A DNA stretch of 64,000 nt from Syntrophaceae bacterium UBA2192 (GCA_002327315.1 DCVI01000150.1:2114-66113); one strand, 5' to 3'. Shown: positions 408 through 60,619, numbered from the stretch's first letter. A program made the numbers and translations. Notes: generated from the sequence alone by a model not told the origin.

Positions 408-2375
408 TCAGTGGGTGAGCTTGCCGCGGTATTTCGTCGAGGGGAGGACCGTGGCGGGGACAACTTCCTGGCTGACCCAGTACGTCGTGTCGATCGTGAA
501 GGCCCTGTTCGTGTAGATCATGTAGCTGCGGCCGGGTTCCAGGGTTTTCAGGTTGCCGACGGTCTTGTGTCCGTGCAGCAGGAGGTACTGCATCGGCCTC
601 TCGAAACTGAAGAAGAGGCTCGCGTAGGGACTGCCCGCGTATGTCCCGAAAACAGCGTTGACGGATCGGTCCCCGGCGGGGAGCTTCTCGAACCGGACGG
701 TGTTGTAGCCCTTGTGGAATGTCATCTCCGTCTTGACGACGATCTTTTCCATGTAGGTTGTCAGTGCCGCGGAGGGTGCCGTCTCGGTCACCGTCACCTC
801 GTCGGGGTCCACCTGGGCCTTGTAGCCGATCTTGAGTTTGTGGACGAAATACCTGCCTGCCTTGGTGACTTTCGAGGCAAACTGGCCCGCCGAGTCGGTG
901 AGGTAATCCCCCACGACCTGCCCGAGTTCGTCCTTCACGGTGACGCTGACGCTCTCCAGCCCCGAGCCGGAAGGAACCTCCCTGATGTTGCCGTTGATGA
1001 AAAATTCCGTCACGGGGGGCGGGACGGGCCCGTCCTTGTCGTACTTGATCAGGACGGCGTCGATGACGCCGGGTGCCTGCTCCCCCAGCACGCCCTCCGT
1101 GGCGCCGGCAAGGTAGACGGTCCCCGAGGGGTCCACGGCGATCCCATAGGCCCAGTCCTGGGCGGCCGTGCCGAGCTGCCGGGTGAAGAGCTTCCGGCCC
1201 TCCGGCGCGAGGCGCGTCAGGAAGATGTCGGAGGCGCCCAGATAGCTCTGCCCGTCGAGACCCGGGCCGCCGGGGTAACCGGTAATTCCGGTCAGGTAGA
1301 TACTACCCTCGGCATCGACGGCAACCCCGTAGGCGACGTCATTGGTCGTCGTTCCGTACTGGTAGGACCAGAGCTTGCTGAGGTTTGCAGTGTATTTGAC
1401 GACGACGATGTCCTCATTGCCCGACCAGGCGTTCCCGTCGAAGGCCCCCAGGGTCGAGCCGGCGACGATGACGTTGCCCTTGCTGTCGACGGTGATGGCC
1501 CTGCCGATGTCGTTATCGCTTCCGTTGTTGGGGCCCCCCACCGTAGCGAGCTTTTTCAGCGTGCACCAGGCATCGAACTTGGCGATGAAGAGGGATCCGT
1601 TTTCATAAGCCCGGGCCAGGCCCGTGACGTAGATGTAGTCATAGGCCGTGCTGCTGTCGACGGCCACGCCGTAGGCATAGGTGTCCAGGGGGCGCGTTGC
1701 GACGCTGAACTGGTTGACGGGCATATCGACTCCGGTGGCGCTGAGCTGCAACAGGAAGGCGTTGCTATAGTCGCCGGGGTCGGTCACGCCGTCCATGGCG
1801 CCCTTCGTCGCCCCTACCGCATAGACCAGGCCGCTGCGGTCGGCGGCTACCGCGTAGGCGAAATCATCTTTGTCCGTGCCGAACTGCTTGATCCAGCGAA
1901 TCGTCCCCCCGGTGTGAATCTTTGCAACGAATACATCGGCGAGGCCGGCGTTTGCGTTCTCCGGCGGGACAACGGGCTGCTCGGCGCCTCCCGGCATGCT
2001 CCCCATCGTCCAGCCTGCGACATAGAGGAAGCCATATCGGTCGAGGGTGATCCCCTCGATGAAATCATCAGCCCCTGAACCGAACTGGACGACCCAGAGG
2101 AGCGCTCCCTGGGGGTCGAACTTGGCCACGAAGGCATCGGTGCCGCCCTTGTTGGTGTTCGGGACGAGCTGAGTCTCTGCGTTGATCGCGCCATGGGTTG
2201 TGCCTGCCACGTAGACGTTTCCAGAGGCATCCGTGACAAGCTCCTTGGCGTAATCGATCTGGGTCGAACCGAACTGCTTGACCCACTGAGGTGGGACGGG
2301 CGCCGTGGCGGCGAAAGCGGACCCGGCCAGCATGATGAAAAGGATGACGGTGACGACGAAATGACGGGTTTTCAT
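408..2375 (-). CDS. secreted SBBP-type beta-propeller repeat protein with a C-terminal Ig/CarboxypepD_reg-like region
   Basis: AGGAGG RBS before ATG at 2375. Signal peptide MKTRHFVVTVILFIMLAGSAFA. At least 7 repeats of the type D-[FW]-A-Y-[GA]-[VI]-A-V-D-x-x-G-x-[VI]-Y-[VL]-[AT]-G. The track ORF start at 2564 is rejected as an upstream extension. Confidence 0.8.
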   Translation of the reverse strand: MKTRHFVVTVILFIMLAGSAFAATAPVPPQWVKQFGSTQIDYAKELVTDASGNVYVAGTTHGAINAETQLVPNTNKGGTDAFVAKFDPQGALLWVVQFGSGADDFIEGITLDRYGFLYVAGWTMGSMPGGAEQPVVPPENANAGLADVFVAKIHTGGTIRWIKQFGTDKDDFAYAVAADRSGLVYAVGATKGAMDGVTDPGDYSNAFLLQLSATGVDMPVNQFSVATRPLDTYAYGVAVDSSTAYDYIYVTGLARAYENGSLFIAKFDAWCTLKKLATVGGPNNGSDNDIGRAITVDSKGNVIVAGSTLGAFDGNAWSGNEDIVVVKYTANLSKLWSYQYGTTTNDVAYGVAVDAEGSIYLTGITGYPGGPGLDGQSYLGASDIFLTRLAPEGRKLFTRQLGTAAQDWAYGIAVDPSGTVYLAGATEGVLGEQAPGVIDAVLIKYDKDGPVPPPVTEFFINGNIREVPSGSGLESVSVTVKDELGQVVGDYLTDSAGQFASKVTKAGRYFVHKLKIGYKAQVDPDEVTVTETAPSAALTTYMEKIVVKTEMTFHKGYNTVRFEKLPAGDRSVNAVFGTYAGSPYASLFFSFERPMQYLLLHGHKTVGNLKTLEPGRSYMIYTNRAFTIDTTYWVSQEVVPATVLPSTKYRGKLTH

Positions 2376-2680
2376 GACTCCCCTCCTGAAAAGCCCTTTT
2401 GTTCGCGCCTGAGCGGTTGTGCAGGTAGCGGTGACGGGAAAAAGGCATCCGGGAAGCGATGAGGGGATCCGCGGCGGGGTGCCGAAGACAGCCCCCGGGC
2501 CCGGTACTCCGGAACCGGAGGGTGCTCGGCTCGCCTGGCAGCCCTGCAACCCTATCCCGCGCAAGCGGGACGTAGGCCGGTGGCTTTGCGCCCCATCCTT
2601 TCGGATGGTTTGCCCTTTTCAGGCTCGTCAATCCCTATATCGGCAGGTCAGCGGAAAACTTTAGCGGGATGTCTCCTGCA

Positions 2681-4001: not shown

Positions 4002-5084
4002 ATGCCTTACGCGCGAGCAGAGTCGGAACTCTTCACCTTTGATCAATACGATTTCACGCTCCCCCCACAGGCTGGACTGTACCCGGAATTTCGCTACATG
4101 GGCTCGAAGAGCCGCCTTTTGCCATGGATCTACAGTGTTCTGAAAAGCCTAGACTTTGAAACGGCGGCCGACCCCTTCCTTGGGAGCGGCTGCGTTGCCT
4201 ACTTGCTGAAAAGCATGGGGAAGGAGGTCCTAGGAGCCGATTTCCTCAACTTTCCTACCGTAATCGCGAAAGCCTCAATAGAAAACAACACAACCCAAGT
4301 TGATGAAAAATCGTTAAAGCGCCTTTTGTCCACCCGGAAGAAAGCGCCTGATTTCATCCAAAAGAAATTCTCAGGCATTTTCTTCGATGCCGAAGATCGG
4401 GTGTTTCTCGACCGGGTCTGCGGGAATATCGAAAGCTTGGGAGATGATTACCGGCAGGCTATCGCTAGAGCAGCCCTGATCCGGTCTTGCCTTAAAAAAC
4501 AGCCCCGGGGCGTATTCACGGTATCCGGAGATCCCTCCAGATATGACGACGGCCGGCGCGACCTGCGGCTTTCCATAGAGGAGCACTTCCTTGAACAGGT
4601 TCAGGTGCTCAACGAGATCGTATTCGACAACGGGCACCGGCATAAGATTTTTCACAGCGACGTTTTCGATCTTCCGGCGGAAGGAATCGATCTCGTTTAT
4701 TTCGATCCGCCTTACGTCCCGCGATCGGACGACAATTGCTACGTGAAGCGATATCATTTTCTGGAAGGACTCTCCTGTTACTGGAGGGGACTCGAAATTA
4801 TGGAAAATACCAAGGTCAAAAAGATCGCCAAGCAATATACCCCGTTCAGTTACAGACGAACGGCCGTCGATGCCTTCCACAGGCTGTTCCGGCAATTCAG
4901 AAATTCAATCATTGTCCTCTCATACAGTTCAAACGGCTTCCCCGATTTGGGAGAGCTTGAATCCATCATGGGTCAATATAAAAAACGAGTGGTCACTTAC
5001 AAAAAGCCACACCGCTACCATTTTGGGACGCACAGTCGGGTTGAGCGTGCCCTGGTTGAAGAATTTCTGATTGTTGGTTGTTGA
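4002..5084 (+). CDS. DNA N6-adenine methyltransferase (Dam/D12-class)
   Basis: YMGSKSRLLPWI N-terminal motif, SAM-binding DPFLGSGCVAY, and catalytic FDPPYV. Confidence 0.85.
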   Translation: MPYARAESELFTFDQYDFTLPPQAGLYPEFRYMGSKSRLLPWIYSVLKSLDFETAADPFLGSGCVAYLLKSMGKEVLGADFLNFPTVIAKASIENNTTQVDEKSLKRLLSTRKKAPDFIQKKFSGIFFDAEDRVFLDRVCGNIESLGDDYRQAIARAALIRSCLKKQPRGVFTVSGDPSRYDDGRRDLRLSIEEHFLEQVQVLNEIVFDNGHRHKIFHSDVFDLPAEGIDLVYFDPPYVPRSDDNCYVKRYHFLEGLSCYWRGLEIMENTKVKKIAKQYTPFSYRRTAVDAFHRLFRQFRNSIIVLSYSSNGFPDLGELESIMGQYKKRVVTYKKPHRYHFGTHSRVERALVEEFLIVGC

Positions 5085-5920
5085 TGAAGCGCACACAGCA
5101 GACATTATCCGAAATTCTGTCCTCACTGCAGCCTCTTCAAGTCGATTGGCAGGATGATGTTGCCCTCCGGGTTATCGACTATCTGAAAACGATCCCACAA
5201 AAGAAAAAATACGGCCGGCCGGATATCAAACGCATCCTGAATCACAACTTCGATGATGCCCTCCTGATCTTCCGCTTATTTCTCGGTTTGTCCAAAGACC
5301 AATTCATTCCGATGCTCAATTCCGAGCTGGGTGGAGGCGGCAGCGGGATCAAACGCTATAATCAAGACCAGGATGCTTATATTCAGGCCTTGGTTTCTCT
5401 GGAAGTCCCCCAAGCCATGGCGGCCTGCATCAACCGGGTTCCGCACTGGTCGGACATTCTGGTGGAGCGACTGCGCAGCGGGCGTGGCAGCGCGATCAGC
5501 GGCATGAAACGCGGGCGCACGGTGGAAGACTTCGTCGAGGCGATCGTAAAGAGGATCTTCACATCGTATGATGTCCGTTGTGATTTCAGCGGTATTTCCG
5601 GAAAGAAAGCAAAATGCGATTTCGCAATCCCCAGCCGCGACTTGCCTAAAATCATTATCGAGTCGAAAGGCTATGCCGCAACCGGCTCCAAGATGACGGA
5701 CATCATGGGCGATCTGGAAAAAATCATGACAGCCAAACGCCACGACACCACGCTTCTACTCTTCACCGACGGTTTGTCCTGGAACCAGCGCCAGAGTGAC
5801 CTCGCAAAGATTATCAAGTTCCAGAATGAAGGCTACATCGAGCGGATCTATACGTTAAAGATGGCGGAGCAGCTTGAAGAGGATCTGAAGAGTTTAAAGG
5901 CGGAACTTGGGCTTGAGTGA
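5084..5920 (+). CDS. type II restriction endonuclease, DpnII/MboI-like (GATC-type suspected)
   Basis: Its start overlaps the methyltransferase stop (TGATG). KCDFAIPSRDLPKIIIESKGYAATGSKMTD resembles the DpnII core as I recall it (RFDFVI...LIEVNFYSGSGSKLNE). GRTVEDFVEAIV resembles GDAMENIV. Confidence 0.6.
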   Translation: MKRTQQTLSEILSSLQPLQVDWQDDVALRVIDYLKTIPQKKKYGRPDIKRILNHNFDDALLIFRLFLGLSKDQFIPMLNSELGGGGSGIKRYNQDQDAYIQALVSLEVPQAMAACINRVPHWSDILVERLRSGRGSAISGMKRGRTVEDFVEAIVKRIFTSYDVRCDFSGISGKKAKCDFAIPSRDLPKIIIESKGYAATGSKMTDIMGDLEKIMTAKRHDTTLLLFTDGLSWNQRQSDLAKIIKFQNEGYIERIYTLKMAEQLEEDLKSLKAELGLE

Positions 5921-5970
5921 TCTTTGCGAAATAACAGGGCCCCCGGAGCCCACGGAGCAATGCTTAAGCA

Positions 5971-7098
5971 ATGAAAAGGAATCCGAATACTTTCATAAGC
6001 TACTCCCATGATTCCGAGGAGCTTAAACGGATCATATTGGCTTTCGCAAATCAACTAAGACAACAAGGGATTAACTGTAACCTTGATCAATATGAAGAAT
6101 CGCCGGAGAATGGCTGGATTTCATGGATGGAAGCCGAGATACGCAGTAGCGATTACGTCCTTGTTGTGTGTACCGAAGGCTATACAGCAAAACTTCAGCC
6201 CGGAACCAAAAGCCCGCAAGGGAAGGGGGTCAAATGGGAAGGGGCAATCATCACACAGGAACTTTACGAATCTGAAGGAAGAAACAGGAAATTCATTCCC
6301 GTATTGTTGCACGAAGACGATAAGCCATGTATTCCGCGACCGCTCAAATCGTACACCTATTACATCCTGACTGACACGGGTTATGAAAAATTATATCGGA
6401 GACTTACAAAGCAAATCGCTATCGAGAAACCACCAGTAGGGGGAATCCTAGAATTTCCAAGGACAGGGAAGAATATCTCAAATCAGGCTTCCACACCTAA
6501 TCTCCAGCCCAAGAGCCTATCCCAGAATATTGTCGGAAACAATAACATACAGATCGGTGAATTAAGCATGCGGGCTGGCGCTACGGTACGCATCGCACTA
6601 TTGCCAGCACCGGGGACAATAGGTGCCAACCATCTATTGAAACAAGCGATGATGGATCGGTTCAATAAGTTAGGAGAGGAGCGGGAAAAACGATTTGGCA
6701 AAAGTGCATATCCGGTTATGTATAGTCTTTTCAAAAGAGCATTCGGTATAAAAAAGAAAAGGTCGTGGACCGATATTTGGAATTGGCCCGAAGCTGCGGC
6801 AGATGAGATCACAAAGTATCTAGATGAAAAATTCGCAAATACCATAGCGGGGAGAGTAGAGAGTGCTGCTCAAAAGGGAAGACGAATACCCAGTAAAGGC
6901 GACCTGTTTAGAAGAGAAAAGGAGTTGCTGGCCCAGTTGGATCTGGAGATATCGAGTCCTAAAGTAACAAATGCTTTGGTGAAATATTTTGGCGTCAACA
7001 GCCACACGAAGCTGGACTCTCTGAAACATTGGCACTGGGTAATGTATTTGGAGGAACTAGTGAGACAAGCAATCGGAGAACGGCCTTCTCGCTTTTAA
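5971..7098 (+). CDS. SEFIR (TIR-like) domain protein with an uncharacterised C-terminal domain
   Basis: N-terminus TFISYSHDSEELKRIILAFANQLRQQGINCNLDQY...GWISWMEAEIRSSDYVLVVCTEGY matches the SEFIR pattern (FISYSH, W..E, hydrophobic strand + C/S). I do not recognise any family for residues from about 190 to 375. Confidence 0.75.
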   Translation: MKRNPNTFISYSHDSEELKRIILAFANQLRQQGINCNLDQYEESPENGWISWMEAEIRSSDYVLVVCTEGYTAKLQPGTKSPQGKGVKWEGAIITQELYESEGRNRKFIPVLLHEDDKPCIPRPLKSYTYYILTDTGYEKLYRRLTKQIAIEKPPVGGILEFPRTGKNISNQASTPNLQPKSLSQNIVGNNNIQIGELSMRAGATVRIALLPAPGTIGANHLLKQAMMDRFNKLGEEREKRFGKSAYPVMYSLFKRAFGIKKKRSWTDIWNWPEAAADEITKYLDEKFANTIAGRVESAAQKGRRIPSKGDLFRREKELLAQLDLEISSPKVTNALVKYFGVNSHTKLDSLKHWHWVMYLEELVRQAIGERPSRF

Positions 7099-7118
7099 TG
7101 ATTCATCGCTAAGGACGA

Positions 7119-8387
7119 ATGAGAACTATCCAAAAGGTTATAGATTATGAAAGCGAGGAGAGCATAGTCGCAGATGTTTTCTTCGCCAAAGATGAAGCCG
7201 ATGTCTTTACGCAACGGTCCGCACTGGAGAAGGCTTATCATCAGCATAGAAAAATTTGGGTCTGCCCTGTTTGCCGGCAGCCCGTTAAAATCAGGGGGAG
7301 AAAAAACGGCATTCAATCCATGCATTTCGCGCATTTCGCAGACCTGCGTGATTGTCCGATAAAGACAGGGAAGAATTATACCAAAGGTGAAATCCTTAGG
7401 ATGGTCTACAATGGGCAGAAAGAAAGCCCGAGACATGACAGGCTGAAGAATCTCATCGCGGAACAAATATCAAAGGATGAAAGGTTTAAAGAAATCAATG
7501 TAGAGAAACGGTTTGTGGGAATCTGTAAAGACTGGAGAAAACCAGATGTCTCAGCAATTTTCAACGGGAAGAAAGTCGTCTTTGAGCTTCAGCTTAATAC
7601 AACCTTTCTCAGCGTTATAACTGAACGAAATCTGTTTTACCAAGATAATCAAACATACATTCTCTGGGTCTTCGACCACAAGCGAAAGAATATTGATGAT
7701 ATGCGGTTTATGGAAAAAGATATTGTTTATCCCAATCACCATAACGCCTTTTTCATCAATGAAGCAGTGAATGATGGCCAATTCAAGCTGTTTTGTTACT
7801 ACGAAGAACCCAATATAGTTGATGGATCAATCGAGAATGTCTGGCAGTTAAAGGAAATTGATTTTGGCGATCTGACATTTAGCGCAGATTTTCAGGTTTA
7901 TTGGTTCCATTATGAAAAGAAAAAGAAATCGCTACTTGAAGAAATAGAGCAAAACAAGTTTTTAGAATTTGGAAAGGTATGGCGATCCGCTTCTTATGAA
8001 GAGCGATCTCACCTGCTTGATAGATACAGCCATATTCTCAGAGGCCAATGTAAGGATTTTAATTTTCATGAGCTGTCGAATCTTCTGGATTGTTTATACT
8101 CAATCAAATTTAAAGAGCCCATAGGATACAAGTATGTTCGGGTCGTGCAATTATTGCATCAATATCTTGGGAAAGACACGGGCCAAGATTCGCACTTTGG
8201 TGAATATGTCTTTAAATCAATAAGAGTATACGCGCACGATCATATCAAAAAAGAAGATCGAACAAAGAAATTATCCGCTAAGGCAATAGATTACAGAAAG
8301 AAAGGGTTTAAACAATCTGACAAATACGACCCTTTTCTGAAACGGCTGTTTCCGGAGTTATTTTTAGAGGAAATGAAGAATAGGTGA
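7119..8387 (+). CDS. CoiA-like zinc-ribbon / PD-(D/E)xK nuclease family protein
   Basis: The ordered motifs CPVCRQPV...HFAHF...ESPRHDRLKNLI...WRKPDVSAIF...VVFELQLN...ERNLFY...YILWVF match the CoiA family order (CPxC, HFxH, ESxxH..K, rPDV, E.Q.S, R..Y, ilWv). The gene lies 21 bp after the SEFIR gene. Confidence 0.75.
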   Translation: MRTIQKVIDYESEESIVADVFFAKDEADVFTQRSALEKAYHQHRKIWVCPVCRQPVKIRGRKNGIQSMHFAHFADLRDCPIKTGKNYTKGEILRMVYNGQKESPRHDRLKNLIAEQISKDERFKEINVEKRFVGICKDWRKPDVSAIFNGKKVVFELQLNTTFLSVITERNLFYQDNQTYILWVFDHKRKNIDDMRFMEKDIVYPNHHNAFFINEAVNDGQFKLFCYYEEPNIVDGSIENVWQLKEIDFGDLTFSADFQVYWFHYEKKKKSLLEEIEQNKFLEFGKVWRSASYEERSHLLDRYSHILRGQCKDFNFHELSNLLDCLYSIKFKEPIGYKYVRVVQLLHQYLGKDTGQDSHFGEYVFKSIRVYAHDHIKKEDRTKKLSAKAIDYRKKGFKQSDKYDPFLKRLFPELFLEEMKNR

Positions 8388-8584
8388 ATTCGCCAGCCGA
8401 TGGGATTCTGTCAAAAGTAGACCAGATCTGGGATTAATCAATCAGGGCAGGGAATGCGCATCTGTTGCGGGAAAATGCGAACAGCCGTTTCAGCGTCTGC
8501 ATAGATAGTCCCATATGCTCCTCCAGGAATTAAAAGACTGCGCGTTAAGAGCGAGGCGAAGCCGCGTCTGCGCTGATGCCCTTG

Positions 8585-9421
8585 TTAGTCCGGCATTGCG
8601 AAGTACCGACCGCCAAGATAAGCCATGTACTCCTGATGCGCCGCCCCGGAGCCGGTCTGCATCTCAGCGAACACTGACTGGTAGCTGAGAGCCCTGAACT
8701 CGATTCCGTCGGCGACAGCTATGCGGGCGAACTCCGCCGCCTCCGCAGCGTGTTCAGCTGTCGAGGTGCCGAGGATTTCATACCATAGGTACACAAGCGC
8801 CCACTGCTTCCCCGAAGTGGCCAGTCCGAGTATGTGCTTTAGCAACTGCGCCGCGTTCAACAGCCGGAACGCCGCTTTGTCCGAGTACAGCCGTTCGGCA
8901 AGCTCCTGGCACCTCGGGTAGCCCGCTACCCGCCACAAGCCGGACTCAGACTCGAAATACTTCGCCTTGAAGCCCGATGCCGAGCCGTGGCCATAATACG
9001 GCTCGAGGAATTTGGACTCGATCGCCGTCACAGAACCGGACGGCGACGTCAGAACAACGTCCAGGTTGGGTGCGTTGCCGGGCAGTCCCGTTGGGTACTT
9101 TCGCTCGAAATCGACTCCGACGATTGGCGCCGGCAGGCGGAGAGTGGAGGCGAGCGGGGAGGCGTCGCGTCCGCGCCAGTATTCGAAGAAGTTGTATGCC
9201 AGTGCCGAAGAGGAATGCAGAGCCCGCATCTTCCCGCGGTTTCCGGGTCGACCGAGTTCACCGCCGTCGCCACTGCCGAACTCCGCAAGCGCTTGGGGCG
9301 ACATCTGCAGGAACAGGTTATCCGCGAGATCAACGACGTAACCTTGCGAGTCGGTGGCAATCCCTCGCTCACTCGCCCAGGCGCGCTGCTGGATACGCAC
9401 GAGTTTCGCCGGGGAAGGCAT
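8585..9421 (-). CDS. hypothetical protein, candidate PD-(D/E)xK-fold nuclease
   Basis: 278-aa ORF. NLDVVLTSPSGSVTAIESKFLEPY gives a D...(E)SK arrangement, preceded by HSSSALAYNFFEYW. It is more GC-rich than its neighbours. Confidence 0.55.
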   Translation of the reverse strand: MPSPAKLVRIQQRAWASERGIATDSQGYVVDLADNLFLQMSPQALAEFGSGDGGELGRPGNRGKMRALHSSSALAYNFFEYWRGRDASPLASTLRLPAPIVGVDFERKYPTGLPGNAPNLDVVLTSPSGSVTAIESKFLEPYYGHGSASGFKAKYFESESGLWRVAGYPRCQELAERLYSDKAAFRLLNAAQLLKHILGLATSGKQWALVYLWYEILGTSTAEHAAEAAEFARIAVADGIEFRALSYQSVFAEMQTGSGAAHQEYMAYLGGRYFAMPD

Positions 9422-9475: not shown

Positions 9476-10531
9476 TCAAGTGGGTCCCGTCCCCGAAATA
9501 ATGGCGATTGTATTGATGAGTGAACGAGTAGCTTCCGCGCACAGGGCGGCGTCACGAAAGCCGGCTGTACGACGGTGTTGTAGGCTCACGGCAAGGTCAT
9601 ACAAGGCCTTCATGAATCTTCTCTGTGCATCGTGTGAGCCACCGCTTAGCTGTTTCGTGATGAAGCCGTCAAGCATCCGCTTGGCATCAGCCTCGCTGGG
9701 AGTTACTCCGTCAGACAAGGCGTGCTGTTCTCGATCATAGACTGCTTGGGCAAGGGAGATCATCGACTCACGGCACAGCAATCCGATCGATTGAAAATCC
9801 TCTTCATCAGTTGCTGTTTCCAGAGCTCTGACTATCTTCTCTACGTTTCTGTCGACGCGTGCCCATCCAGTTGGCTCTATGGGTTGTATTGGCTTGGCTC
9901 TTGTACTGAGCTGCAATGCGTCTAACAAGGATTGATAGAGGGACGAGATGTACATTCTGCGCGATTGATATGTCGGCAAGCTTCCGTCGCTCCACTTACC
10001 GTACCAAGTCCATAGATTCGGATACGGGTTTGGATCTCCGATAGACAACGCTGCTAAATTTTCTTTTATTTGAAGTCGCCTGTCTTCGTACTCCCGGGCC
10101 ACATCTTTGATTCTTGGCCCACCTGTTGCCACAGAAATCATGAGCGCCTTCTGGGCTTCAACTGTCTGAATTAATTCATTCATCTCGGCCTGCAGCAGCG
10201 GGGAATCTACAGTTGACGCATTAGCATAGCTGATTGCTATCGCCCGCGTGCGAATACCTTTCAGATAAGCTCCGCTCGGTAAGGTTGCGGTGATTGCTCG
10301 TTCAATGCTTTTGGTCAGAGGATCCCGCTGGTTTGTCAGAATGTCGTATGATTTTCGGGGGCAGCTCAATTCAATCAGGACACCGTCCAACTGCCGATTA
10401 CCGTCCATCCAATGGTCGACAATGTCCCAGTCCTCGACTGTGCATGTCCGCAAAAGATTCGCCGCTTCTGCTTCGCCACCGTCAAAAAGGAACTGAATCG
10501 ACTGCTTGAGTAATTCTTCGTCAATCTGCAT
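9476..10531 (-). CDS. hypothetical protein (351 aa), no recognised catalytic motif
   Basis: ATG at 10531 has a GAGGA RBS, whereas the track start at 10579 is TTG. Conserved-looking segments are NPYPNLWTWYGKWSDGSLPTYQSRRMYISSLY and the C-terminal helical bundle WARVDRNVEKIVRALETATDEEDFQSIGLLCRESM. Confidence 0.55.
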   Translation of the reverse strand: MQIDEELLKQSIQFLFDGGEAEAANLLRTCTVEDWDIVDHWMDGNRQLDGVLIELSCPRKSYDILTNQRDPLTKSIERAITATLPSGAYLKGIRTRAIAISYANASTVDSPLLQAEMNELIQTVEAQKALMISVATGGPRIKDVAREYEDRRLQIKENLAALSIGDPNPYPNLWTWYGKWSDGSLPTYQSRRMYISSLYQSLLDALQLSTRAKPIQPIEPTGWARVDRNVEKIVRALETATDEEDFQSIGLLCRESMISLAQAVYDREQHALSDGVTPSEADAKRMLDGFITKQLSGGSHDAQRRFMKALYDLAVSLQHRRTAGFRDAALCAEATRSLINTIAIISGTGPT

Positions 10532-18350: not shown

Positions 18351-18824
18351 ATGCGAAAGACCCTCTTCTCAATTGCCCTCATCCTCGCGGCCGCCCTGTG
18401 CGTTGCGATGACCGTAACCGTTTCCGACGCTGCGACCCTTTATCGATGGGTCGATGAGCAGGGCGTCGTTCACATCTCCGGGAATCCTCCCGAAGGAAAG
18501 ATGGAGGTTGCCCAGGCCGTTGTCGGTGAGGCAGAAGACAAGGGGCCTGGGGCAGGACCCGCCGGGGAGAAGAAGGTATTTCAAGTCCGTCCCGGGGAAG
18601 TCACCATATACACGACGCCCACCTGCCCCTGGTGCCACAAGGCGAAGGCCTGGTTTCGGGACAAGAAAATCCGCTATAAAGAGGTCGACGTGACAACCGA
18701 TAAAAGCGGCCTCGAGGAGATGGTGCGCATTTCCGGCCAGACAGGTGTTCCCGTGATCGTCGCGGGTGGCGAGGTGATCGTGGGGTTCAATCAGAACCGG
18801 CTGAACGAAATTTTCAAGGATTGA
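18351..18824 (+). CDS. exported DUF4124-glutaredoxin fusion protein
   Basis: Signal peptide, then YRWVDEQGVVHISGNPP (DUF4124-like), then a glutaredoxin fold with a CPWC active site and GVPVIV. Confidence 0.8.
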   Translation: MRKTLFSIALILAAALCVAMTVTVSDAATLYRWVDEQGVVHISGNPPEGKMEVAQAVVGEAEDKGPGAGPAGEKKVFQVRPGEVTIYTTPTCPWCHKAKAWFRDKKIRYKEVDVTTDKSGLEEMVRISGQTGVPVIVAGGEVIVGFNQNRLNEIFKD

Positions 18825-20218: not shown

Positions 20219-20635
20219 ATGAAGCCATACACCAATTTTAACCACACGGCCGACCTCGGCCTTGCCATCACGGGCGCAAGCGAAGAGAAGCTTTTTGCCA
20301 ACGCCGCCTTTGCCGTTTTCGACATCCTCACCGATCTCGGTCGCGTGGAGCCGCGCGAGACCCGCCGGATCCTGGTGGAGGGGGACAGCCGTGAGGATCT
20401 TCTGATCAACTTCCTCCGGGAGATCCTCTACCTTTACAATGGGGAGCGATGGCTCCTGAAGGAAATCCGCGTCATCAAGATCGACCAAAAGGCCCTCGAG
20501 GCGGAGGCCCGCGGCGAGCCCTTCGACGAGCATAAACACGAAATCTGCAAGGAAATCAAGGCCGTGACCTACCACCAGGCGGAAGTTCGCAAGTCCCCTG
20601 ATGGCTGGGCGGCCAGGGTGATCTTCGATGTCTGA
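20219..20635 (+). CDS. archease (RtcB activator)
   Basis: FNHTADLGL N-terminal motif and C-terminal KAVTYHQAEV...W. The gene overlaps the rtcB start. Confidence 0.9.
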   Translation: MKPYTNFNHTADLGLAITGASEEKLFANAAFAVFDILTDLGRVEPRETRRILVEGDSREDLLINFLREILYLYNGERWLLKEIRVIKIDQKALEAEARGEPFDEHKHEICKEIKAVTYHQAEVRKSPDGWAARVIFDV

Positions 20636-22070
20636 TATAAAGCTGCGACGCATCGACGAGTACCGATGGGAAATCCCGCGGGAGGGGGCCATGCGCGTCC
20701 CGGGGATTATCTACGCGAGCGACAAGCTCATGAAGGCCATGGGGAAGGATGAAAGCCCGAAACAGGTGGCCAACGTGGCCCAGTTGCCGGGGATCGTGAA
20801 GCACTCGCTAGCCATGCCCGATATGCACTGGGGTTACGGCTTTCCGATAGGCGGGGTGGCCGCTTTTGATATCGACGGCGGCATCGTCTCGCCGGGGGGT
20901 GTTGGTTACGACATCAACTGCGGCTGCCGCCTCGCGGTGACAAGCCTCCGCCGGGACGAGATCCGCCCGCAGATGGCGAAGATTGTCAATGCGCTGTTCC
21001 AGCATGTGCCTTCAGGCGTCGGCTCCAGGGGGGCTCTGAAACTCTCCCGCAGCGAGGAGAAGCGGGTTCTTGTCGAGGGGGCCCGATGGGCGGTGAAAAA
21101 CGGCTACGGCTCCCGGGGCGACCTGGAGTCCATGGAGGACGGGGGGTGTCTGCCCGGGGCAGACCCGGAGGCGGTGAGCGAAAGGGCCCTCGAGAGGGGG
21201 AAGGACCAGGTGGGCACCCTGGGCTCCGGCAACCATTTTCTCGAGGTGGAGATCGTCGAGGAGATCTTCGACAGGGACGTGGCCTCGGTCCTGGGGATCG
21301 AAGTCGGCCAGGTGGCCGTCATGATCCACAGCGGCTCCCGGGGCCTCGGTCACCAGGTCTGCGACGACTACCTGGCGAAGCTGGTGAAGCACGTCGACAA
21401 GATAGGCATCAAACTTCCCGACCGGCAGCTTGCCTGCGCCTATATTCAGTCGCCCGAGGGGCAGCAGTACCTCACGGCCATGGCCTGCGCGGCAAACTAT
21501 GCCTGGGCAAACCGGCAGATGCTCATGCACTGGACGGGCGAAGCCCTCGAGAAGGCCCTCGGCATGGGGCCCCGCGAGCTGGGCATGCGCCTTGTCTACG
21601 ATGTCTGCCACAACATTGCCAAGATCGAGGAGCACATCGTCGACGGGAAGAAGATGACCCTCTGCGTCCACCGCAAGGGGGCGACCCGCGCATTCCCTCC
21701 CGGGCACCCGGCCCTTCCGCAGAAATTCCGCAAGACGGGACAGCCCGTGCTGATCCCCGGTGACATGGGGACGGGCTCTTACGTTCTCGTGGGGACCGAG
21801 AAGTCCATGGAAATGACCTTCGGGAGCACCTGCCACGGTGCGGGGCGGGTGCTGAGCCGTGCCGCGGCCATCAAGGCGAGCAAGGGCCGGTCGATCCGCC
21901 GGGAGATGGAGGACCGCGGGGTCCTCGTCATGTCCGCCGCCAAGGGCACTCTCGCCGAGGAGATCCCCGAGGCCTACAAGGACATCGACGAGGTCGTCAA
22001 CGTTGTACACGGCGCAGGACTTTCAAGGAAAGTCGCCAGGCTCCGCGCCGTCGGCTGCATCAAGGGGTGA
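20628..22070 (+). CDS. rtcB: RNA-splicing ligase RtcB
   Basis: MPDMHWGYGFPIGG, GYDINCG, GSGNHFLE and HSGSRGLGHQ motifs, at the full 480-aa length. Confidence 0.95.
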   Translation: MSDIKLRRIDEYRWEIPREGAMRVPGIIYASDKLMKAMGKDESPKQVANVAQLPGIVKHSLAMPDMHWGYGFPIGGVAAFDIDGGIVSPGGVGYDINCGCRLAVTSLRRDEIRPQMAKIVNALFQHVPSGVGSRGALKLSRSEEKRVLVEGARWAVKNGYGSRGDLESMEDGGCLPGADPEAVSERALERGKDQVGTLGSGNHFLEVEIVEEIFDRDVASVLGIEVGQVAVMIHSGSRGLGHQVCDDYLAKLVKHVDKIGIKLPDRQLACAYIQSPEGQQYLTAMACAANYAWANRQMLMHWTGEALEKALGMGPRELGMRLVYDVCHNIAKIEEHIVDGKKMTLCVHRKGATRAFPPGHPALPQKFRKTGQPVLIPGDMGTGSYVLVGTEKSMEMTFGSTCHGAGRVLSRAAAIKASKGRSIRREMEDRGVLVMSAAKGTLAEEIPEAYKDIDEVVNVVHGAGLSRKVARLRAVGCIKG

Positions 22071-22170
22071 GCCACGAGCCACTAGCCGCAAGCCACGAGG
22101 CATCAAATGCCACGAATAGAAAATCTTGTTCTGCCTTGCGGCTTGAGGCTGAGCCCTGCAGACTGCAGGG
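22069..22170. repeat. long imperfect hairpin with AGCCRCRAG arms plus the CCCTGCA/TGCAGGG stem-loop
   Basis: Left arm GAGCCACGAGCCACTAGCCGCAAGCCACGAGGCA; right arm TGCCTTGCGGCTTGAGGCTGAGCC. Then CCCTGCA-gac-TGCAGGG at 22154-22170, between convergent genes. Confidence 0.6.
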
Positions 22171-22182
22171 CGACTATACGTC

Positions 22183-22389
22183 TCACGTCCCGCCGTACCC
22201 CACCGTCACCTTCCCCGCCTCGACGATGACGGGGACGGCGCGCCTGCCGCCGGAGAGCTTCAGCATCTCGGGAAGTCTCGCCGCATCCTTTTTCACGTCC
22301 ACATACTCCGCCTTGTCGCCATAGGCCGACCTGGCCTTGTCCGTGTAAGGTCAGCCGACCTTGCCGTAGATGATCAACTTGTCTGCCAT
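22183..22389 (-). CDS. glutaredoxin-like selenoprotein candidate (UPYT in place of CPYC), Sec codon at 22351-22353
   Basis: GGAGGG RBS. Translation: MADKLIIYGKVG-U-PYTDKARSAYGDKAEYVDVKKDAARLPEMLKLSGGRRAVPVIVEAGKVTVGYGGT. The UGA falls exactly where the Grx CxxC first Cys sits. The frame stays open for 55 more codons and carries the Grx VPVI motif. Confidence 0.7.
22323..22337 (-). promoter_or_regulatory. candidate SECIS hairpin
   Basis: AGGCC-AGGUC-GGCCU begins 13 nt after the UGA. The loop contains GGU. Confidence 0.35.
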
Positions 22390-22435
22390 GAGTGCACCCT
22401 CCATCATCTTTTTGCTGTTATCCCCGTGCCTCCTG

Positions 22436-23152
22436 CTAAGGCCGGACGGGTCCCGCGATCGGATCCTGGTACCCGTGATCGAAGAACGCCCCGTCCAGGG
22501 CAGGATTGATCCTGTAGTTGCTGAAAATCGTGAACTCCAGGGCAGTGCCAGCCAGGTCGAACCGCTCGAACCGTGCAGGGAGCCAGAGCCTGCTGTCGAT
22601 ATAAATGCGGTATCGTTCCGGCACCTGCCCCTTGACGTAATCCTTTGCATTGAGCCGGAAGGACAGAATCTCCCCGTCGAATTTGAAATCGGCGTTTTCC
22701 TGGGGCAGGTTCCTGGCATTATCGCGCAGGAAGCCCAGGAAGTAACGGAGGTGCAGCTGGTTTACGGCCTGTCCCGAGGGGGACTTGAACAGCGGGTTGT
22801 TGACCGAAAGACGGAACTGGACCGAAGGGAACACGGCAAGGGGCCTTGAGGTCACTTCATTCTCCCCCTCGGTGTAGAAGATCGTCACCCCCGGGTAAGG
22901 GCTTCGGAACTCGATCCGAAAGCGGTCCGGCTTCCGGAAATAGAACCTGAAGTCGTAGCGTTCGGACTCCCTGCTTGACTTGAAATAGATCCCTTCGATA
23001 TCGCAGGCGTAGGAGCGGAGCTTGCCGTATGCCTCCTCGATCCGGTTTGCCACCTCGAGGATCCGCTCCCGGTCCATACCGCCCTGGGCCCGGCAGTCCA
23101 GGGGATGCAGGGTCAGCAGGGCTATTGCAATCATAAGGATGCAGCGCTTCAT
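22436..23152 (-). CDS. LolA-like / outer-membrane lipoprotein-sorting-fold protein
   Basis: Signal peptide MKRCILMIAIALLTL. DRFRIEF...TIFYTEG resembles the LolA/DUF1571-like beta-sheet pattern. The start abuts the upstream stop. Confidence 0.55.
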   Translation of the reverse strand: MKRCILMIAIALLTLHPLDCRAQGGMDRERILEVANRIEEAYGKLRSYACDIEGIYFKSSRESERYDFRFYFRKPDRFRIEFRSPYPGVTIFYTEGENEVTSRPLAVFPSVQFRLSVNNPLFKSPSGQAVNQLHLRYFLGFLRDNARNLPQENADFKFDGEILSFRLNAKDYVKGQVPERYRIYIDSRLWLPARFERFDLAGTALEFTIFSNYRINPALDGAFFDHGYQDPIAGPVRP

Positions 23153-23153
23153 C

Positions 23154-24692
23154 TCACCTGAACACGAAGTAATGCTCGAACAGACCCGGTTCATCAAAAA
23201 GGGTCCGCCCCGACAGGGTGATGGCGTGGTGGCCCCGCTGCCTCATGCTCCCGATGGAAGGAATGCCCGTGGGGAAGAAGATAAACCGCTCGACCCTCCC
23301 GGAACCTTTGGCAATGCCCTCGGCGTCGAAGATGCTTGCGCCCCGGCCGTCCCCCCGGGGCAGGGCCTCCAGCATCTCGTAGGGGAGCAGCTCATAGGGA
23401 GTGCCTTCGGGCGGAGGTGCCAGGGCCAGGAGCCTCTGGACCTGGTGCCATCCCGAGATGATCCGTACGGCGGGGGATTGTCCCGCCGCCATCTCCGGGA
23501 GTCCCTGGGGGGCGAAGGGGTCGTTTGGGTAATAGCGCTGGATCGTCCGGAGCACCCGGTCCTTCGCCGGGATGAATACGTGATAGCAGCCGCAGTTGTT
23601 CATGAGATCGATCATGAACAGCCGTCCCCCTGGTTCGAAGGACAGGCGAAGGGTGAGGCCGTCGAGACGGCCGTGCTCGATTGAAGGCGCCCGGTCTCCC
23701 GCCCAGGCCGGGTACCAGAAGGCATAATTGATCTGGAGGACCGGTTCGCCCTTCACGCGGGCATGGGAGAGGTAATAATAGACCGCGGGCTTGTCCCCGT
23801 CGACGGTCAGTTCATCGCCCTTCCAGGTGATCCGCCCGACGCGGTCATAGGGGGCTGCCTCGTCCTGGATGATGACGGGCGCGTAGTGCACCGCGAGCTC
23901 CCTTGCCTCGCTGGCGGAGGGCCTGGGGATGTTGAGGGGGTTGTGCCTCGAGGCCGCGATCACCTCGCGGGCATCCCTGCCGGTGCCCTGCGGCGGCCTG
24001 TAGAAACGCAGCCTCCCCTCCACGGGGAGTTTTTCGTAAGGCATTTCGTACCAGGCGCGGAAGCGTTCGCGCACCCTCTCGGTGATTTTGTACTCGGGGA
24101 TCGTGACCAGGGGATAGAGCCCGGCGATCCGCAGGGCATTGGAGTACTCGTCGGGGACCTCGACACGGGGCGTGAGCTCGTCGTAAAAATCGGGCCGTAC
24201 CCGGTCGGCATCGTAAAGAGACTGCGAACAGGCCGCCACCCGCCGGGCAAGCTCTTCACGGCTCGCCGCGAGCGTCCTTGCGGCAACGTCGGGCAGGGTT
24301 GCAATTTCCCGATTCCTTGCCTCCAGGTCGAGCTCCCGCATCCACTGCACCCAATCCGTTTTCGCGGCCGGTTCTGAAAGACCTCCCGCAAGCGATGCCA
24401 CGAAACGATTCGCCCTCAGGTAGGGAAAGCCGGGGACGGGCGCATCCGCCGCGTTGTGCACCCCCCTCTCGAGGACGACGGCATCGAGTCTCTCGAAAAA
24501 CGCCCGGCACCCGTCAGGGCGCTCTGTCTCCCAGGGGACCCTCGTTGCCGAAAGGGTCCCGCAGCCGGCGAGGGAGAGGATCAGCAGGACGGAAAAAAGT
24601 GCACTCAGCGACGAGCATCCGCAGACCCTCGTGCCGAGGGGGTTACGGGGGGACGCCTTTAAATTTTTGTTCAACACCGTTGAACGTTCCAT
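23154..24692 (-). CDS. lipoprotein of unknown function (512 aa)
   Basis: Lipobox LILSLAGCGT. Long uninterrupted ORF with native codon bias. No recognised domain. Confidence 0.65.
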   Translation of the reverse strand: MERSTVLNKNLKASPRNPLGTRVCGCSSLSALFSVLLILSLAGCGTLSATRVPWETERPDGCRAFFERLDAVVLERGVHNAADAPVPGFPYLRANRFVASLAGGLSEPAAKTDWVQWMRELDLEARNREIATLPDVAARTLAASREELARRVAACSQSLYDADRVRPDFYDELTPRVEVPDEYSNALRIAGLYPLVTIPEYKITERVRERFRAWYEMPYEKLPVEGRLRFYRPPQGTGRDAREVIAASRHNPLNIPRPSASEARELAVHYAPVIIQDEAAPYDRVGRITWKGDELTVDGDKPAVYYYLSHARVKGEPVLQINYAFWYPAWAGDRAPSIEHGRLDGLTLRLSFEPGGRLFMIDLMNNCGCYHVFIPAKDRVLRTIQRYYPNDPFAPQGLPEMAAGQSPAVRIISGWHQVQRLLALAPPPEGTPYELLPYEMLEALPRGDGRGASIFDAEGIAKGSGRVERFIFFPTGIPSIGSMRQRGHHAITLSGRTLFDEPGLFEHYFVFR

Positions 24693-60310: not shown

Positions 60311-60619
60311 TTACTGCAGAATCTTCGGCGGCCCGGAGAGCGGAAACCCCGCCTTTTCGAGGGCATCGACGATCTTTTCGATACTGGTTACTTCGTCATC
60401 GAAGTGGATGATCGCCATGTGGGTGAACTCATTGACATCCGACTTTCCGGCCTTTGCAACGTTTGTGAGGGTCCAACTGACCCTGTCCCGGGTGAAGGGT
60501 CACTCGCAGTTCGGCAGCATGACCTGGATGATCCGCTCCTTGGCCATGGCGGTTGAGGCGCCGATCAGGATGACAAGCACAACCGTGAACAGCACCAGGA
60601 GAATCGATCTTGATCTCAT
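60311..60619 (-). CDS. exported HMA-like ferredoxin-fold selenoprotein candidate (C-E-U motif); Sec codon at 60500-60502; absent from the ORF track
   Basis: AAGGAGG RBS. MRSRSILLVLFTVVLVILIGASTAMA signal peptide. KERIIQVMLPNCE-U-PFTRDRVSWTLTNVAKAGKSDVNEFTHMAIIHFDDEVTSIEKIVDALEKAGFPLSG follows the HMA layout (metal-binding loop, ...V.fD....s.e.i..ai..aGf). Confidence 0.6.
60468..60484 (-). promoter_or_regulatory. candidate SECIS hairpin
   Basis: AGGGUC-AGUUG-GACCCU (6-bp stem) begins 15 nt after the UGA. Confidence 0.4.

What the first reader, a model, noticed from the sequence alone, without database searches (positions are those of the whole stretch)
22183..22389. Glutaredoxin-like gene with in-frame UGA at the active-site Cys (UPYT), split and mis-called in the ORF track
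Twelve codons after a GGAGGG-preceded ATG, the frame hits TGA exactly where Grx/NrdH proteins have the first Cys of CPYC (YGKVG-U-PYTDKA). Translation continues for 55 codons with typical Grx features (RRAVPVIVEAGKVTVGY). The track shows only a spurious 122-aa ORF (22351-22719) that ends at this TGA. A hairpin AGGCC-AGGUC-GGCCU lies 13 nt downstream, where a bacterial SECIS is expected.
Basis: partly seen in the sequence, partly recalled or inferred. Interest (0 to 1): 0.55.

Follow-up and report, generated by a model that had tools for sequence, protein, structure and literature searches.

The report
Two-selenocysteine glutaredoxin-like gene, known family
This is a real 71-codon glutaredoxin-like gene with two UGA codons that most likely encode selenocysteine, one at the active site and one three codons from the end, and it belongs to the already described "UXX-star selenoprotein family 1", so it is a correct catch but not new.

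Summary
On the minus strand, a GGAGGG-preceded ATG (22389) opens a frame that hits TGA at codon 13 (22353..22351). This is exactly where solved glutaredoxins have the first Cys of CPYC.

The "stop" at 22185..22183 is a second TGA, followed by GAC-GTA-TAG, so the protein ends ...GYGGT-U-D-V. The true CDS is 22389..22174.

The sequence (U read as C) scores 103 bits, against a cutoff of 72, on NCBIfam NF041114 "UXX-star selenoprotein family 1". A 2026 review lists this family with motif UxxT and 2 Sec.

Across 81 genes (80 related genome loci plus the window):
- Codon 13 is TGA in 69 and TGC/TGT in 12.
- The C-terminal position is TGA in all 80 that can be read, always followed by two codons (mostly Gly-Val, using all synonymous codons) and a stop.

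Both UGAs are followed by hairpins that meet the published bacterial SECIS criteria. The first has compensatory wobble changes. The second lies in the 3' UTR, and its stem sequence varies freely while its position and G/U loop are kept.

No selA/B/C/D genes lie in the window. Two well-supported selenoprotein-type genes (peroxiredoxin, DUF523) and one tentative MerP-like one do.

Function is untested. The best guess is a redox carrier that cycles through a Sec13-Sec69 diselenide.

The parts
22174..22389 (-). Complete CDS of the UXX-star family 1 glutaredoxin-like selenoprotein: 71 codons plus TAG. Product: MADKLIIYGKVG-U-PYTDKARSAYGDKAEYVDVKKDAARLPEMLKLSGGRRAVPVIVEAGKVTVGYGGT-U-DV.
   Evidence: NCBIfam NF041114 scores 103.2 bits against a cutoff of 72. 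Pfam Glutaredoxin.
22397..22402 (-). Shine-Dalgarno-like GGAGGG, 7 nt upstream of the ATG.
   Evidence: Read directly from the sequence.
22351..22353 (-). First in-frame UGA (codon 13). Predicted Sec at the position of the first Cys of CPYC; the motif here is U-P-Y-T.
   Evidence: Across the 80 related loci plus the window, this codon is TGA in 69, TGC in 7 and TGT in 5.
22323..22337 (-). SECIS-type hairpin 1, inside the coding region. Stem AGGCC/GGCCU, loop AGGUC. The loop starts 18 nt after the UGA.
   Evidence: Energy -8.4 kcal/mol. 98.5% of cells are paired in 66 distinct loci. Two pairs show compensatory changes. Slid controls give 9-56% pairing.
22183..22185 (-). Second in-frame UGA (codon 69). 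Predicted Sec three residues from the C-terminus.
   Evidence: TGA at this position in all 79 related loci that can be read, plus the window. It is always followed by two codons and a stop.
22174..22182 (-). Codons Asp70 and Val71, then the true stop TAG (22176..22174).
22153..22171 (-). SECIS-type hairpin 2, in the 3' UTR. Stem GCCCUGCA/UGCAGGGC, loop GUC. The loop G and U are nt 23 and 24, counting the U of the UGA as 1.
   Evidence: Energy -15.2 kcal/mol. 73 of 79 sequences (78 loci plus the window) have an equivalent hairpin, against 7% of 11,194 random TGA triplets. There is no T-tail, so it does not look like a terminator.
22351..22719 (-). Spurious mechanical ORF (122 aa). Only its last 12 codons are real, as the N-terminus of the selenoprotein. 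The rest overlaps ORF 22436..23197 in another frame.

Best explanation
The locus encodes a 71-residue minimal glutaredoxin-fold protein of the known UXX-star selenoprotein family 1 (also called 'distant Grx-like protein 1').

Both in-frame UGA codons are most likely decoded as selenocysteine by the bacterial SelB/tRNA-Sec system. Each is directed by its own small hairpin, whose G/U-containing apical loop begins about 18-19 nt downstream. The first hairpin is embedded in the codons for Lys/Ala/Arg/Ser/Ala/Tyr (residues 18-23). The second lies wholly in the 3' UTR, because only two codons and the stop separate Sec69 from it.

In the protein, Sec13 sits at the N-terminus of helix 1, where glutaredoxins have their nucleophilic Cys. 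The usual resolving Cys is replaced by an invariant Thr. Sec69 sits on a flexible tail just after the conserved GG motif.

Inferred, not shown: Sec69 acts as the resolving or partner residue. The protein would then cycle between a reduced diselenol and an intramolecular Sec13-Sec69 diselenide (a selenenylsulfide in the Cys13 forms). It would work as a small redox carrier, or as a carrier of a chalcogen or metal(loid).
For: Shown:
- Family assignment. NF041114 scores 103.2 bits (cutoff 72) and NF041212 scores 75.9 (cutoff 66). The review PMC13188914 lists NF041114 with motif UxxT and 2 Sec.
- Cys/Sec pair at codon 13. Across the 80 loci plus the window the codon is TGA in 69 and TGC/TGT in 12. 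The column aligns with the first Cys of CPYC in PDB glutaredoxins.
- C-terminal UGA. It is present in all 80 readable genes and is followed by exactly two codons and a stop. Gly is encoded by all four of its codons (GGC 21, GGG 35, GGT 12, GGA 3). Val is also encoded by all four (GTG 27, GTA 23, GTC 14, GTT 7). This pattern shows selection on a translated peptide.
- Hairpin 1. 98.5% of cells are paired. Pair 27-33 is CG in 53 and UA in 12 sequences. Pair 24-36 is GC 41, AU 6, UA 5, GU 9. No shuffle out of 500 reaches the observed covariation score. In Sec forms the Arg codon is AGG or CGG in 65 of 68. The more distant Cys forms, including all four Pelotomaculum-type loci, lose the GGU loop.
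- Hairpin 2. It is present in 73 of 79 sequences against a 7% background. Every stem position shows 4-6 pair types. The loop G sits at nt 22-23 in 48 of 79. In the window the stem sequence is unrelated to that of relatives with up to 96% identical proteins, yet its position and loop are kept.
- TGA is otherwise a normal stop here, ending 28 of 49 Pfam-supported window genes.
- The window holds other selenoprotein-type genes with in-frame TGA at the Cys position and a downstream hairpin.
- Fold. The AF2 model of a 70%-identical homologue has a beta-alpha-beta-alpha-beta-beta topology, with tail residues 68-71 at pLDDT below 50. The best structural matches are glutaredoxins and NrdH.
Against: - There is no direct evidence of Sec insertion: no proteomics and no 75Se labelling.
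- No selA, selB, selC or selD gene lies in the 64-kb window, so the organism's Sec competence is inferred only.
- The diselenide mechanism is pure inference. The tools gave no coordinates, so the Sec13-Sec69 distance could not be measured. The modelled tail has low confidence and was modelled with Trp in place of Sec.
- Gene neighbours are not conserved outside the Syntrophales, so context says nothing about a substrate or a reductase.
- For hairpin 1, an alternative 9-bp pairing that includes the UGA itself is also 87% conserved, so the exact structure of the element is not settled.
Confidence: 0.9

Rival explanations
1. One reading: a single-Sec glutaredoxin. Only codon 13 is Sec. The TGA at 22185..22183 is the real stop, and the hairpin after it is an mRNA-stability or terminator element.
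For: The TGA at 22183 is read as a stop by every ORF caller. A GC-rich hairpin just after a gene is also what a terminator looks like.
Against: - Exactly two further sense codons and then a stop follow in all 79 readable related loci and in the window. The peptide is conserved as Gly-Val or Asp-Val while all synonymous codons are used.
- No T-tail follows the hairpin.
- The loop G is fixed at nt 22-23 from the UGA while the stem sequence varies freely.
- The curated family is defined by this U-X-X-stop ending and is listed with 2 Sec.
Confidence: 0.05
2. Pseudogene: a glutaredoxin gene inactivated by a TGC/TGT-to-TGA nonsense mutation at the active-site Cys.
For: A single transversion turns a Cys codon into TGA. 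Cys forms of the gene exist (12 of 81).
Against: - TGA is at this codon in 68 of the 80 related loci, from several phyla.
- The downstream reading frame is intact and conserved.
- The hairpin covaries and its codon choice is restricted.
Confidence: 0.01
3. Reassigned genetic code: TGA is read as Trp or Gly throughout this organism (code 4 or 25). Several metagenome gene callers assumed this, which is why homologues appear with W at both positions.
For: Many database homologues are stored with Trp at both positions.
Against: - TGA ends 28 of 49 Pfam-supported genes in the window.
- The positions align with Cys, not Trp, in Cys-form relatives and in solved glutaredoxins.
- The relatives are Syntrophales, Nitrospirota and Pelotomaculum. 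From general knowledge, not tested here, none of these groups is known to use code 4 or 25.
Confidence: 0.01
4. Both Sec residues are real, but the protein is not a redox enzyme. The two selenols, or Sec69 alone, bind a soft metal or metalloid (Hg, As, Cu) or carry selenium or sulfur. The protein would act as a chaperone or carrier rather than a disulfide/diselenide oxidoreductase.
For: [quoted passage not shown]
- Sec at -3 is never replaced by Cys in the 80 genes examined, whereas position 13 toggles between Cys and Sec. This suggests that Sec69 is the indispensable residue.
- The resolving Cys of CxxC is an invariant Thr.
Against: - No metal-resistance genes are conserved next to the gene.
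- The fold and active-site geometry are those of thiol-disulfide oxidoreductases.
Confidence: 0.3

Closest known systems
UXX-star selenoprotein family 1 (NCBIfam NF041114), also called 'distant Grx-like protein 1' (Zhang & Gladyshev 2008; UXX-star naming attributed to Haft & Tolstoy 2025, as cited in PMC13188914)
   Same: - The sequence scores above the equivalog cutoff.
- It has the UxxT motif at the N-terminal active site.
- It has a second Sec exactly three residues before the stop.
- It is about 70 residues long with a glutaredoxin fold.
   Different: Nothing essential differs. The window protein ends U-D-V, as do five close Syntrophaceae-type relatives, rather than the majority U-G-V. It uses TAG as its stop, and its 3' hairpin stem sequence is unrelated to that of its closest relatives.
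Selenoprotein glutaredoxin Grx1 of Clostridium oremlandii (UxxC; Kim et al. 2011; Cys-mutant structures 7c10/7c12)
   Same: It is a small bacterial glutaredoxin with Sec at the first active-site position. It is among the best structural and sequence matches.
   Different: - The Clostridium protein has a resolving Cys (UxxC), a single Sec, and a C-terminal helix.
- Here the resolving position is Thr, the C-terminal helix is missing, and a second Sec sits on the tail.
C-terminal Gly-Cys-Sec-Gly redox centre of mammalian thioredoxin reductase
   Same: A Sec lies within three residues of the C-terminus, on a flexible tail next to a Gly-rich segment. Its SECIS lies beyond the stop codon. This resemblance comes from general knowledge and was not tested here.
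   Different: It is a eukaryotic flavoenzyme with a eukaryotic 3'-UTR SECIS. It forms a selenenylsulfide with the adjacent Cys, not with a distant active-site residue. There is no homology.
E. coli fdhF SECIS (minimal hairpin GGUUGCAGGUCUGCACC; loop G23/U24 contacted by SelB)
   Same: - A hairpin follows the UGA closely, with a GGUC/GUC apical loop.
- In the window's second element, G and U are at nt 23 and 24, as in fdhF.
- The first element has the loop AGGUC.

The fdhF sequence and numbering are recalled from established literature. The published bSECIS consensus criteria are quoted.
   Different: - The stems are shorter (5 and 8 bp) and have no bulged U.
- One of the two elements is non-coding.
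- Binding to SelB has not been tested.
NrdH-redoxin and YruB-type glutaredoxin-like proteins
   Same: They share a minimal, roughly 75-residue glutaredoxin fold, with structural matches to 1h75 and 4hs1. The hit to TIGR02196 is weak (28 bits).
   Different: - The score is far below their cutoffs: 28.1 against 88.55 for YruB, and 12.6 against 85.75 for NrdH.
- Those families have CxxC and no Sec.

Membership tests
[quoted passage not shown] | Score at or above the curated cutoff of the family HMM | tested here: met
   103.2 bits against a cutoff of 72, with U read as C. The parent subfamily NF041212 scores 75.9 against 66. Sister families 2 and 3 fall below their cutoffs.
[quoted passage not shown] | In-frame UGA exactly three codons before the true stop (U-X-X-stop) | tested here: met
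   TGA at 22185..22183, then GAC, GTA and TAG. All 79 readable related loci show the same architecture.
[quoted passage not shown] | UxxT motif at the N-terminal glutaredoxin active site (listed as 'UxxT, 2 Sec' in PMC13188914) | tested here: met
   The motif is G-U-P-Y-T at codons 12-16. Thr16 and Pro14 are invariant in the family alignment.
[quoted passage not shown] | Glutaredoxin/thioredoxin fold | tested here: met
   Pfam PF00462 scores 28.8 bits against a cutoff of 22.9. The AF2 model of homologue P0006 has pLDDT 84. Its best Foldseek hits are glutaredoxins.
Bacterial selenoprotein gene (general) | Cys-containing homologues with Cys aligned to the UGA | tested here: met
   This is met for codon 13: 12 of the 81 genes have TGC or TGT, and PDB glutaredoxins have Cys there. 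For codon 69, no Cys homologue was found among the 80 readable genes. That is unusual, but it is the known trait of this family.
Bacterial selenoprotein gene (general) | [quoted passage not shown] | tested here: met
   The criteria are quoted.
- Element 1: 5 bp stem, loop AGGUC, 18 nt spacing, -8.4 kcal/mol.
- Element 2: 8 bp stem, loop GUC (or 7 bp with loop AGUCU), 19 nt (or 18 nt) spacing, -15.2 kcal/mol.

Covariation is shown.
Bacterial selenoprotein gene (general) | Sec machinery (selA, selB, selC, selD) in the same genome | not testable with these tools
   The window holds no tRNA at all. About 60 window ORFs gave no SelA, SelB or SelD domain. Only 64 kb is available. Indirect support comes from other selenoprotein-type genes in the window: two well supported and one tentative.
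Bacterial selenoprotein gene (general) | Selenium actually incorporated at the UGA positions | not testable with these tools
   This needs 75Se labelling or mass spectrometry.
NrdH / YruB glutaredoxin-like proteins | Score above the family cutoff and a CxxC motif | tested here: not met
   TIGR02194 scores 12.6 against 85.75, and TIGR02196 scores 28.1 against 88.55. The motif is UxxT, not CxxC.

The most novel reading that the evidence does not exclude
Sec69, not Sec13, is the indispensable reactive centre. It is Sec in all 80 genes examined and never Cys, whereas position 13 toggles between Sec and Cys. The 71-residue protein would then be a natural minimal diselenide (or Se-S) 'swinging-arm' carrier. 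Its very low redox potential or high chalcogen/metal affinity would serve a still unknown partner in strictly anaerobic bacteria (Syntrophales, Nitrospirota and Pelotomaculum among the loci found here). That would be a redox chemistry distinct from any characterised glutaredoxin.
Probability: 0.3. Interest if true: 0.5.

Novelty: already known. Interest (0 to 1): 0.22.

Why it matters
For annotation, this gene shows how standard ORF callers break a two-Sec gene. They yield a spurious 122-aa ORF, a 39-aa fragment, or a Trp-containing translation. It also shows that the last three codons are lost even when the first Sec is recognised.

Biologically the case is compact. One 216-nt gene carries two UGA recoding events, one driven by a coding-region hairpin and one by a 3'-UTR hairpin. 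A third UGA often serves as the true stop only 9 nt after the second Sec codon in relatives. This shows how strictly spacing decides the meaning of UGA.

None of this is new as a family. The open question, here as in the literature, is the function of the protein.

Tried and rejected
- **Rfam.** No bacterial SECIS family matched the region, at either the gathering or the permissive threshold; only chance-level hits appeared. Short bSECIS hairpins are not captured by these models.
- **Single-sequence folding.** The regions downstream of the UGAs gave weak z-scores (-0.6 to -2.0). The thermodynamics of one sequence do not prove the hairpins, so comparative counts were used instead.
- **Alternative long stem for element 1.** GGCUGACCU pairs with AGGUCGGCC, which would bury the UGA. 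This pairing is 87% conserved but has three weak pairs and less covariation. It was neither adopted nor excluded.
- **Conserved gene neighbourhood.** The RtcB/archease neighbours are shared only with close Syntrophales relatives. Clustering all ORFs within 3 kb in the 80 loci gave no partner present in more than 19 loci, apart from an antisense shadow ORF of the gene itself (28 loci).
- **Structure prediction of the window protein itself.** A 70%-identical database homologue with Trp at both positions was modelled instead. No coordinates are returned, so the Sec-Sec distance could not be measured.
- **Haft & Tolstoy 2025 paper.** It is not held in the library. Its content is cited only through the review.
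- **Second glutaredoxin gene (18351..18824).** It passes the Uxx_star subfamily cutoff (77 against 66), but it ends ...FKD-TGA with no U-X-X-stop pattern. It was judged an ordinary glutaredoxin domain.

Full report
**1. What is in the sequence**

The features below are on the minus strand.
- GGAGGG lies at 22402..22397, followed by a 7-nt spacer and ATG at 22389.
- The frame reads MADKLIIYGKVG, then TGA at 22353..22351.
- It continues PYTDKARSAYGDKAEYVDVKKDAARLPEMLKLSGGRRAVPVIVEAGKVTVGYGGT, then TGA at 22185..22183.
- It ends with GAC GTA TAG; the TAG is at 22176..22174.

There is a 122-aa ORF (22351..22719) whose only real part is its last 12 codons. There is also a 39-aa GTG-started fragment (22183..22302). 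The one error is that the second TGA was taken as the stop.

**2. Family assignment**

With both U read as C, Pfam Glutaredoxin matches residues 6-60 across the first TGA (28.8 bits, cutoff 22.9). NCBIfam gives NF041114 "UXX-star selenoprotein family 1" at 103.2 bits (cutoff 72). The parent subfamily NF041212 scores 75.9 bits (cutoff 66). NrdH, YruB and ordinary glutaredoxin models score far below their cutoffs.

[quoted passage not shown] It cites Zhang & Gladyshev 2008. It credits Haft & Tolstoy 2025 with further UXX-star families, whose discovery method looked for truncated termini that extend through UGA. The window gene ends U-D-V-TAG.

**3. Comparative evidence for both UGA codons**

A protein search returned 73 relatives.
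- Many are stored with Trp at both positions (...KAGWPYTD...GYGGSWGV), because gene callers read TGA as Trp on short contigs.
- Others have Cys at position 13 and stop at ...GYGGT.
- About 20 clusters are 39-aa fragments.

A scan of one genome per species found 154 loci, and 80 were kept. They come from Syntrophales/Syntrophaceae, Thermodesulfovibrionia/Nitrospirota, Pelotomaculum, Spirochaetota and others. The closest is 96% identical, from an uncultured delta-proteobacterial MAG.

I read each locus through TGA. The counts below cover the 80 loci plus the window.
- Codon 13 is TGA in 69, TGC in 7 and TGT in 5. This is a classical Cys/Sec pair.
- The codon after GYGG[T/S/A] is TGA in all 80 that can be read; one contig ends too early.
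- That codon is always followed by exactly two sense codons: GV 65, DV 6, GI 5, others 4.
- A stop then follows: TGA 41, TAA 26, TAG 12, and one cut off by a contig end.
- Gly is encoded by all four of its codons, and so is Val. These two codons are therefore under protein-level selection and are translated.

A family profile aligns the codon-13 column with the first Cys of CPYC in solved glutaredoxins 2klx, 3uiw and 3grx. TGA is otherwise an ordinary stop in this genome, ending 28 of 49 Pfam-supported window genes. A reassigned genetic code is therefore excluded.

**4. The two recoding hairpins**

I tested it on a gap-free alignment of 66 distinct TGA-form sequences.
- 98.5% of cells are paired, against 9-56% when the 3' partner is slid by 1-3 columns.
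- Two pairs show compensatory changes. Both involve codon third positions.
  - Pair 27-33: CG 53, UA 12.
  - Pair 24-36: GC 41, GU 9, AU 6, UA 5.
- No shuffle out of 500 reaches the observed covariation score.

Codon use is restricted in the Sec forms. The Arg codon is AGG or CGG in 65 of 68, which supplies the loop GG. The more distant Cys forms, including all four Pelotomaculum-type loci, replace Arg with Leu and lose the GGU loop. A rival 9-bp pairing that includes the UGA itself is 87% conserved but weaker. It may correspond to a lower stem, and I leave it open.

*Element 2* is GCCCUGCA/GUC/UGCAGGGC at 22171..22153, with an energy of -15.2 kcal/mol. It begins 2 nt after the TAG.
- Equivalent hairpins occur in 73 of 79 sequences, against 7% of 11,194 random TGA triplets from the same loci.
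- Every stem position shows four to six pair types.
- The loop G sits at nt 22-23, counted from the U of the UGA, in 48 of 79 sequences.
- The window's stem is unrelated in sequence to that of its closest relatives (protein up to 96% identical), yet position and loop are kept.
- No T-tail follows it, and the terminator scan finds nothing.

Both elements meet the published bSECIS criteria quoted. From established knowledge, the loops resemble the GGUC loop of E. coli fdhF, whose G23/U24 contact SelB. In the window's element 2, G and U are at nt 23 and 24.

In 41 relatives the true stop is itself UGA, only 9 nt after the Sec codon. The hairpin is then too close to that second UGA to recode it. 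This is an inference from the spacing rule.

**5. Surroundings**

Downstream, and convergent with the gene, lie archease (20219..20635) and RtcB (20628..22070). Upstream on the same strand are two ORFs with no family hit (22436..23197 and 23154..24692). They are present only in two relatives. The RtcB synteny is limited to close Syntrophales.

Clustering all ORFs within 3 kb in the 80 loci gave no widely conserved partner. The largest real cluster is in 19 loci; the only larger one, in 28 loci, is an antisense shadow of the gene itself. Context therefore does not reveal the function.

No tRNA and no SelA, SelB or SelD domain is found in the window. The window does hold three more genes with an in-frame TGA at a Cys position and a downstream hairpin.
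- A secreted peroxiredoxin with motif TPT-U. The AhpC-TSA match becomes full length only when the TGA is read through.
- A DUF523+DUF1722 protein with motif GISS-U-LLG. The review lists this type as a known selenoprotein.
- A weaker MerP/HMA-like protein.

This makes Sec decoding in this organism very likely. The review also notes that Thermodesulfobacteriota are among the bacteria richest in selenoproteins.

**6. How it probably works**

*Shown.* An AF2 model of a 70%-identical homologue (mean pLDDT 84) has a beta-alpha-beta-alpha-beta-beta topology.
- Residue 13 sits just before helix 1.
- There is no C-terminal helix.
- The tail, residues 68-71, has low confidence.
- Its best structural matches are archaeal and clostridial glutaredoxins and NrdH.
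- Thr16 replaces the resolving Cys and is invariant in the alignment.

*Inferred.* In glutaredoxins the GG motif after strand 4 borders the active site; this is general knowledge. Sec69, two residues after that motif on a flexible tail, could therefore reach Sec13. It could form a diselenide, or a selenenylsulfide in the Cys13 forms.

This would work like the mobile C-terminal Sec tail of thioredoxin reductase, with no membership of that family implied. The review's alternative is metal or other ligand binding. That alternative fits the finding that Sec69 is never Cys while position 13 toggles. I give about 0.9 to the statement [quoted passage not shown]. Within that, I give roughly 0.5-0.6 to the diselenide redox reading and about 0.3 to a ligand-carrier reading.

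**7. Novelty and verdict**

The gene is nonetheless a regular member of a curated, published family, with near-identical orthologues in public MAGs. My additions are:
- the second Sec codon and the true gene end (22174);
- the 3'-UTR hairpin;
- quantitative covariation support for both hairpins;
- the absence of a conserved neighbourhood.

Interest is low (0.22). The remaining open question is the protein's function, which sequence analysis does not settle.

Noticed in passing
window 60683..61222, minus strand (TGA at 61000..60998): A secreted peroxiredoxin (AhpC/TSA) with an in-frame TGA in FFPAAYTPT-U-TGE (TxxU). The called ORF 60683..60988 matches only profile positions 49-124. Read through the TGA, it matches positions 1-124 (79.6 bits). 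A hairpin CCAGG/CGAA/CCUGG follows the TGA. This is probably a Sec-peroxiredoxin, a known type.
   Followed up: partly
window 45683..~46675, minus strand (TGA at 46600..46598): A DUF523 (2-thiouracil desulfurase, PF04463) + DUF1722 fusion with an in-frame TGA in GISS-U-LLGQNVRWNGGH, at a conserved Cys position. A 9-bp hairpin begins 18 nt from the UGA. The 2026 review lists a DUF523 selenoprotein as recently predicted. The start codon was not determined.
   Followed up: partly
window 60311..60619, minus strand (TGA at 60502..60500): A small secreted protein with weak MerP/HMA similarity (TIGR02052 34.5 bits and HMA 16.6 bits, both below cutoff). It has an in-frame TGA in MLPNCE-U-PF, followed by the hairpin AGGGUC/AGUUG/GACCCU. 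It lies directly downstream of the Sec-peroxiredoxin candidate. It is a possible CxU metal-binding selenoprotein, but this is tentative.
   Followed up: partly
window 18351..18824, plus strand: A second glutaredoxin gene (DUF4124 plus a Grx domain). It passes the Uxx_star subfamily cutoff (77 against 66 bits) and nearly reaches the YruB cutoff. It ends ...FKD-TGA with no U-X-X-stop pattern, so it looks like an ordinary, non-Sec relative.
   Followed up: partly
window 2534..2624, minus strand: A c-di-GMP-I riboswitch (RF01051, 74 bits, cutoff 35), upstream of a 718-aa beta-propeller-repeat (SBBP) protein ORF (408..2564). It is the only Rfam gathering-level hit in the window.
   Followed up: no
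window 4002..9421: A cluster of restriction/defence-type genes: D12 adenine methyltransferase, a DpnII-like endonuclease, a SEFIR/TIR-domain protein, a CoiA-nuclease-like DUF6035 protein and REase-ARP. G+C at third codon positions is lower than in the rest of the window (0.43-0.65 against about 0.8), which suggests an acquired island.
   Followed up: no
window 22436..24692, minus strand: Two ORFs with no family hit lie directly upstream of the selenoprotein gene: 253 aa with a signal-peptide-like N-terminus, and a 512-aa lipoprotein-like ORF. They are present in only two of the 80 related loci (L001 and L064) and absent from other close relatives. This looks like an insertion between the selenoprotein gene and a conserved 91-aa ORF.
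   Followed up: partly
L001-L005 and 36 other related loci, around locus position 10205..10216: In 41 of 79 readable relatives the true stop after U-X-X is itself TGA. Two UGA codons, 9 nt apart, therefore have opposite meanings. Presumably only the first lies at the right distance from the hairpin.
   Followed up: partly
window 62877..63980, minus strand: A DDE transposase (DDE_Tnp_1_6 / DDE_Tnp_1) near the end of the window.
   Followed up: no
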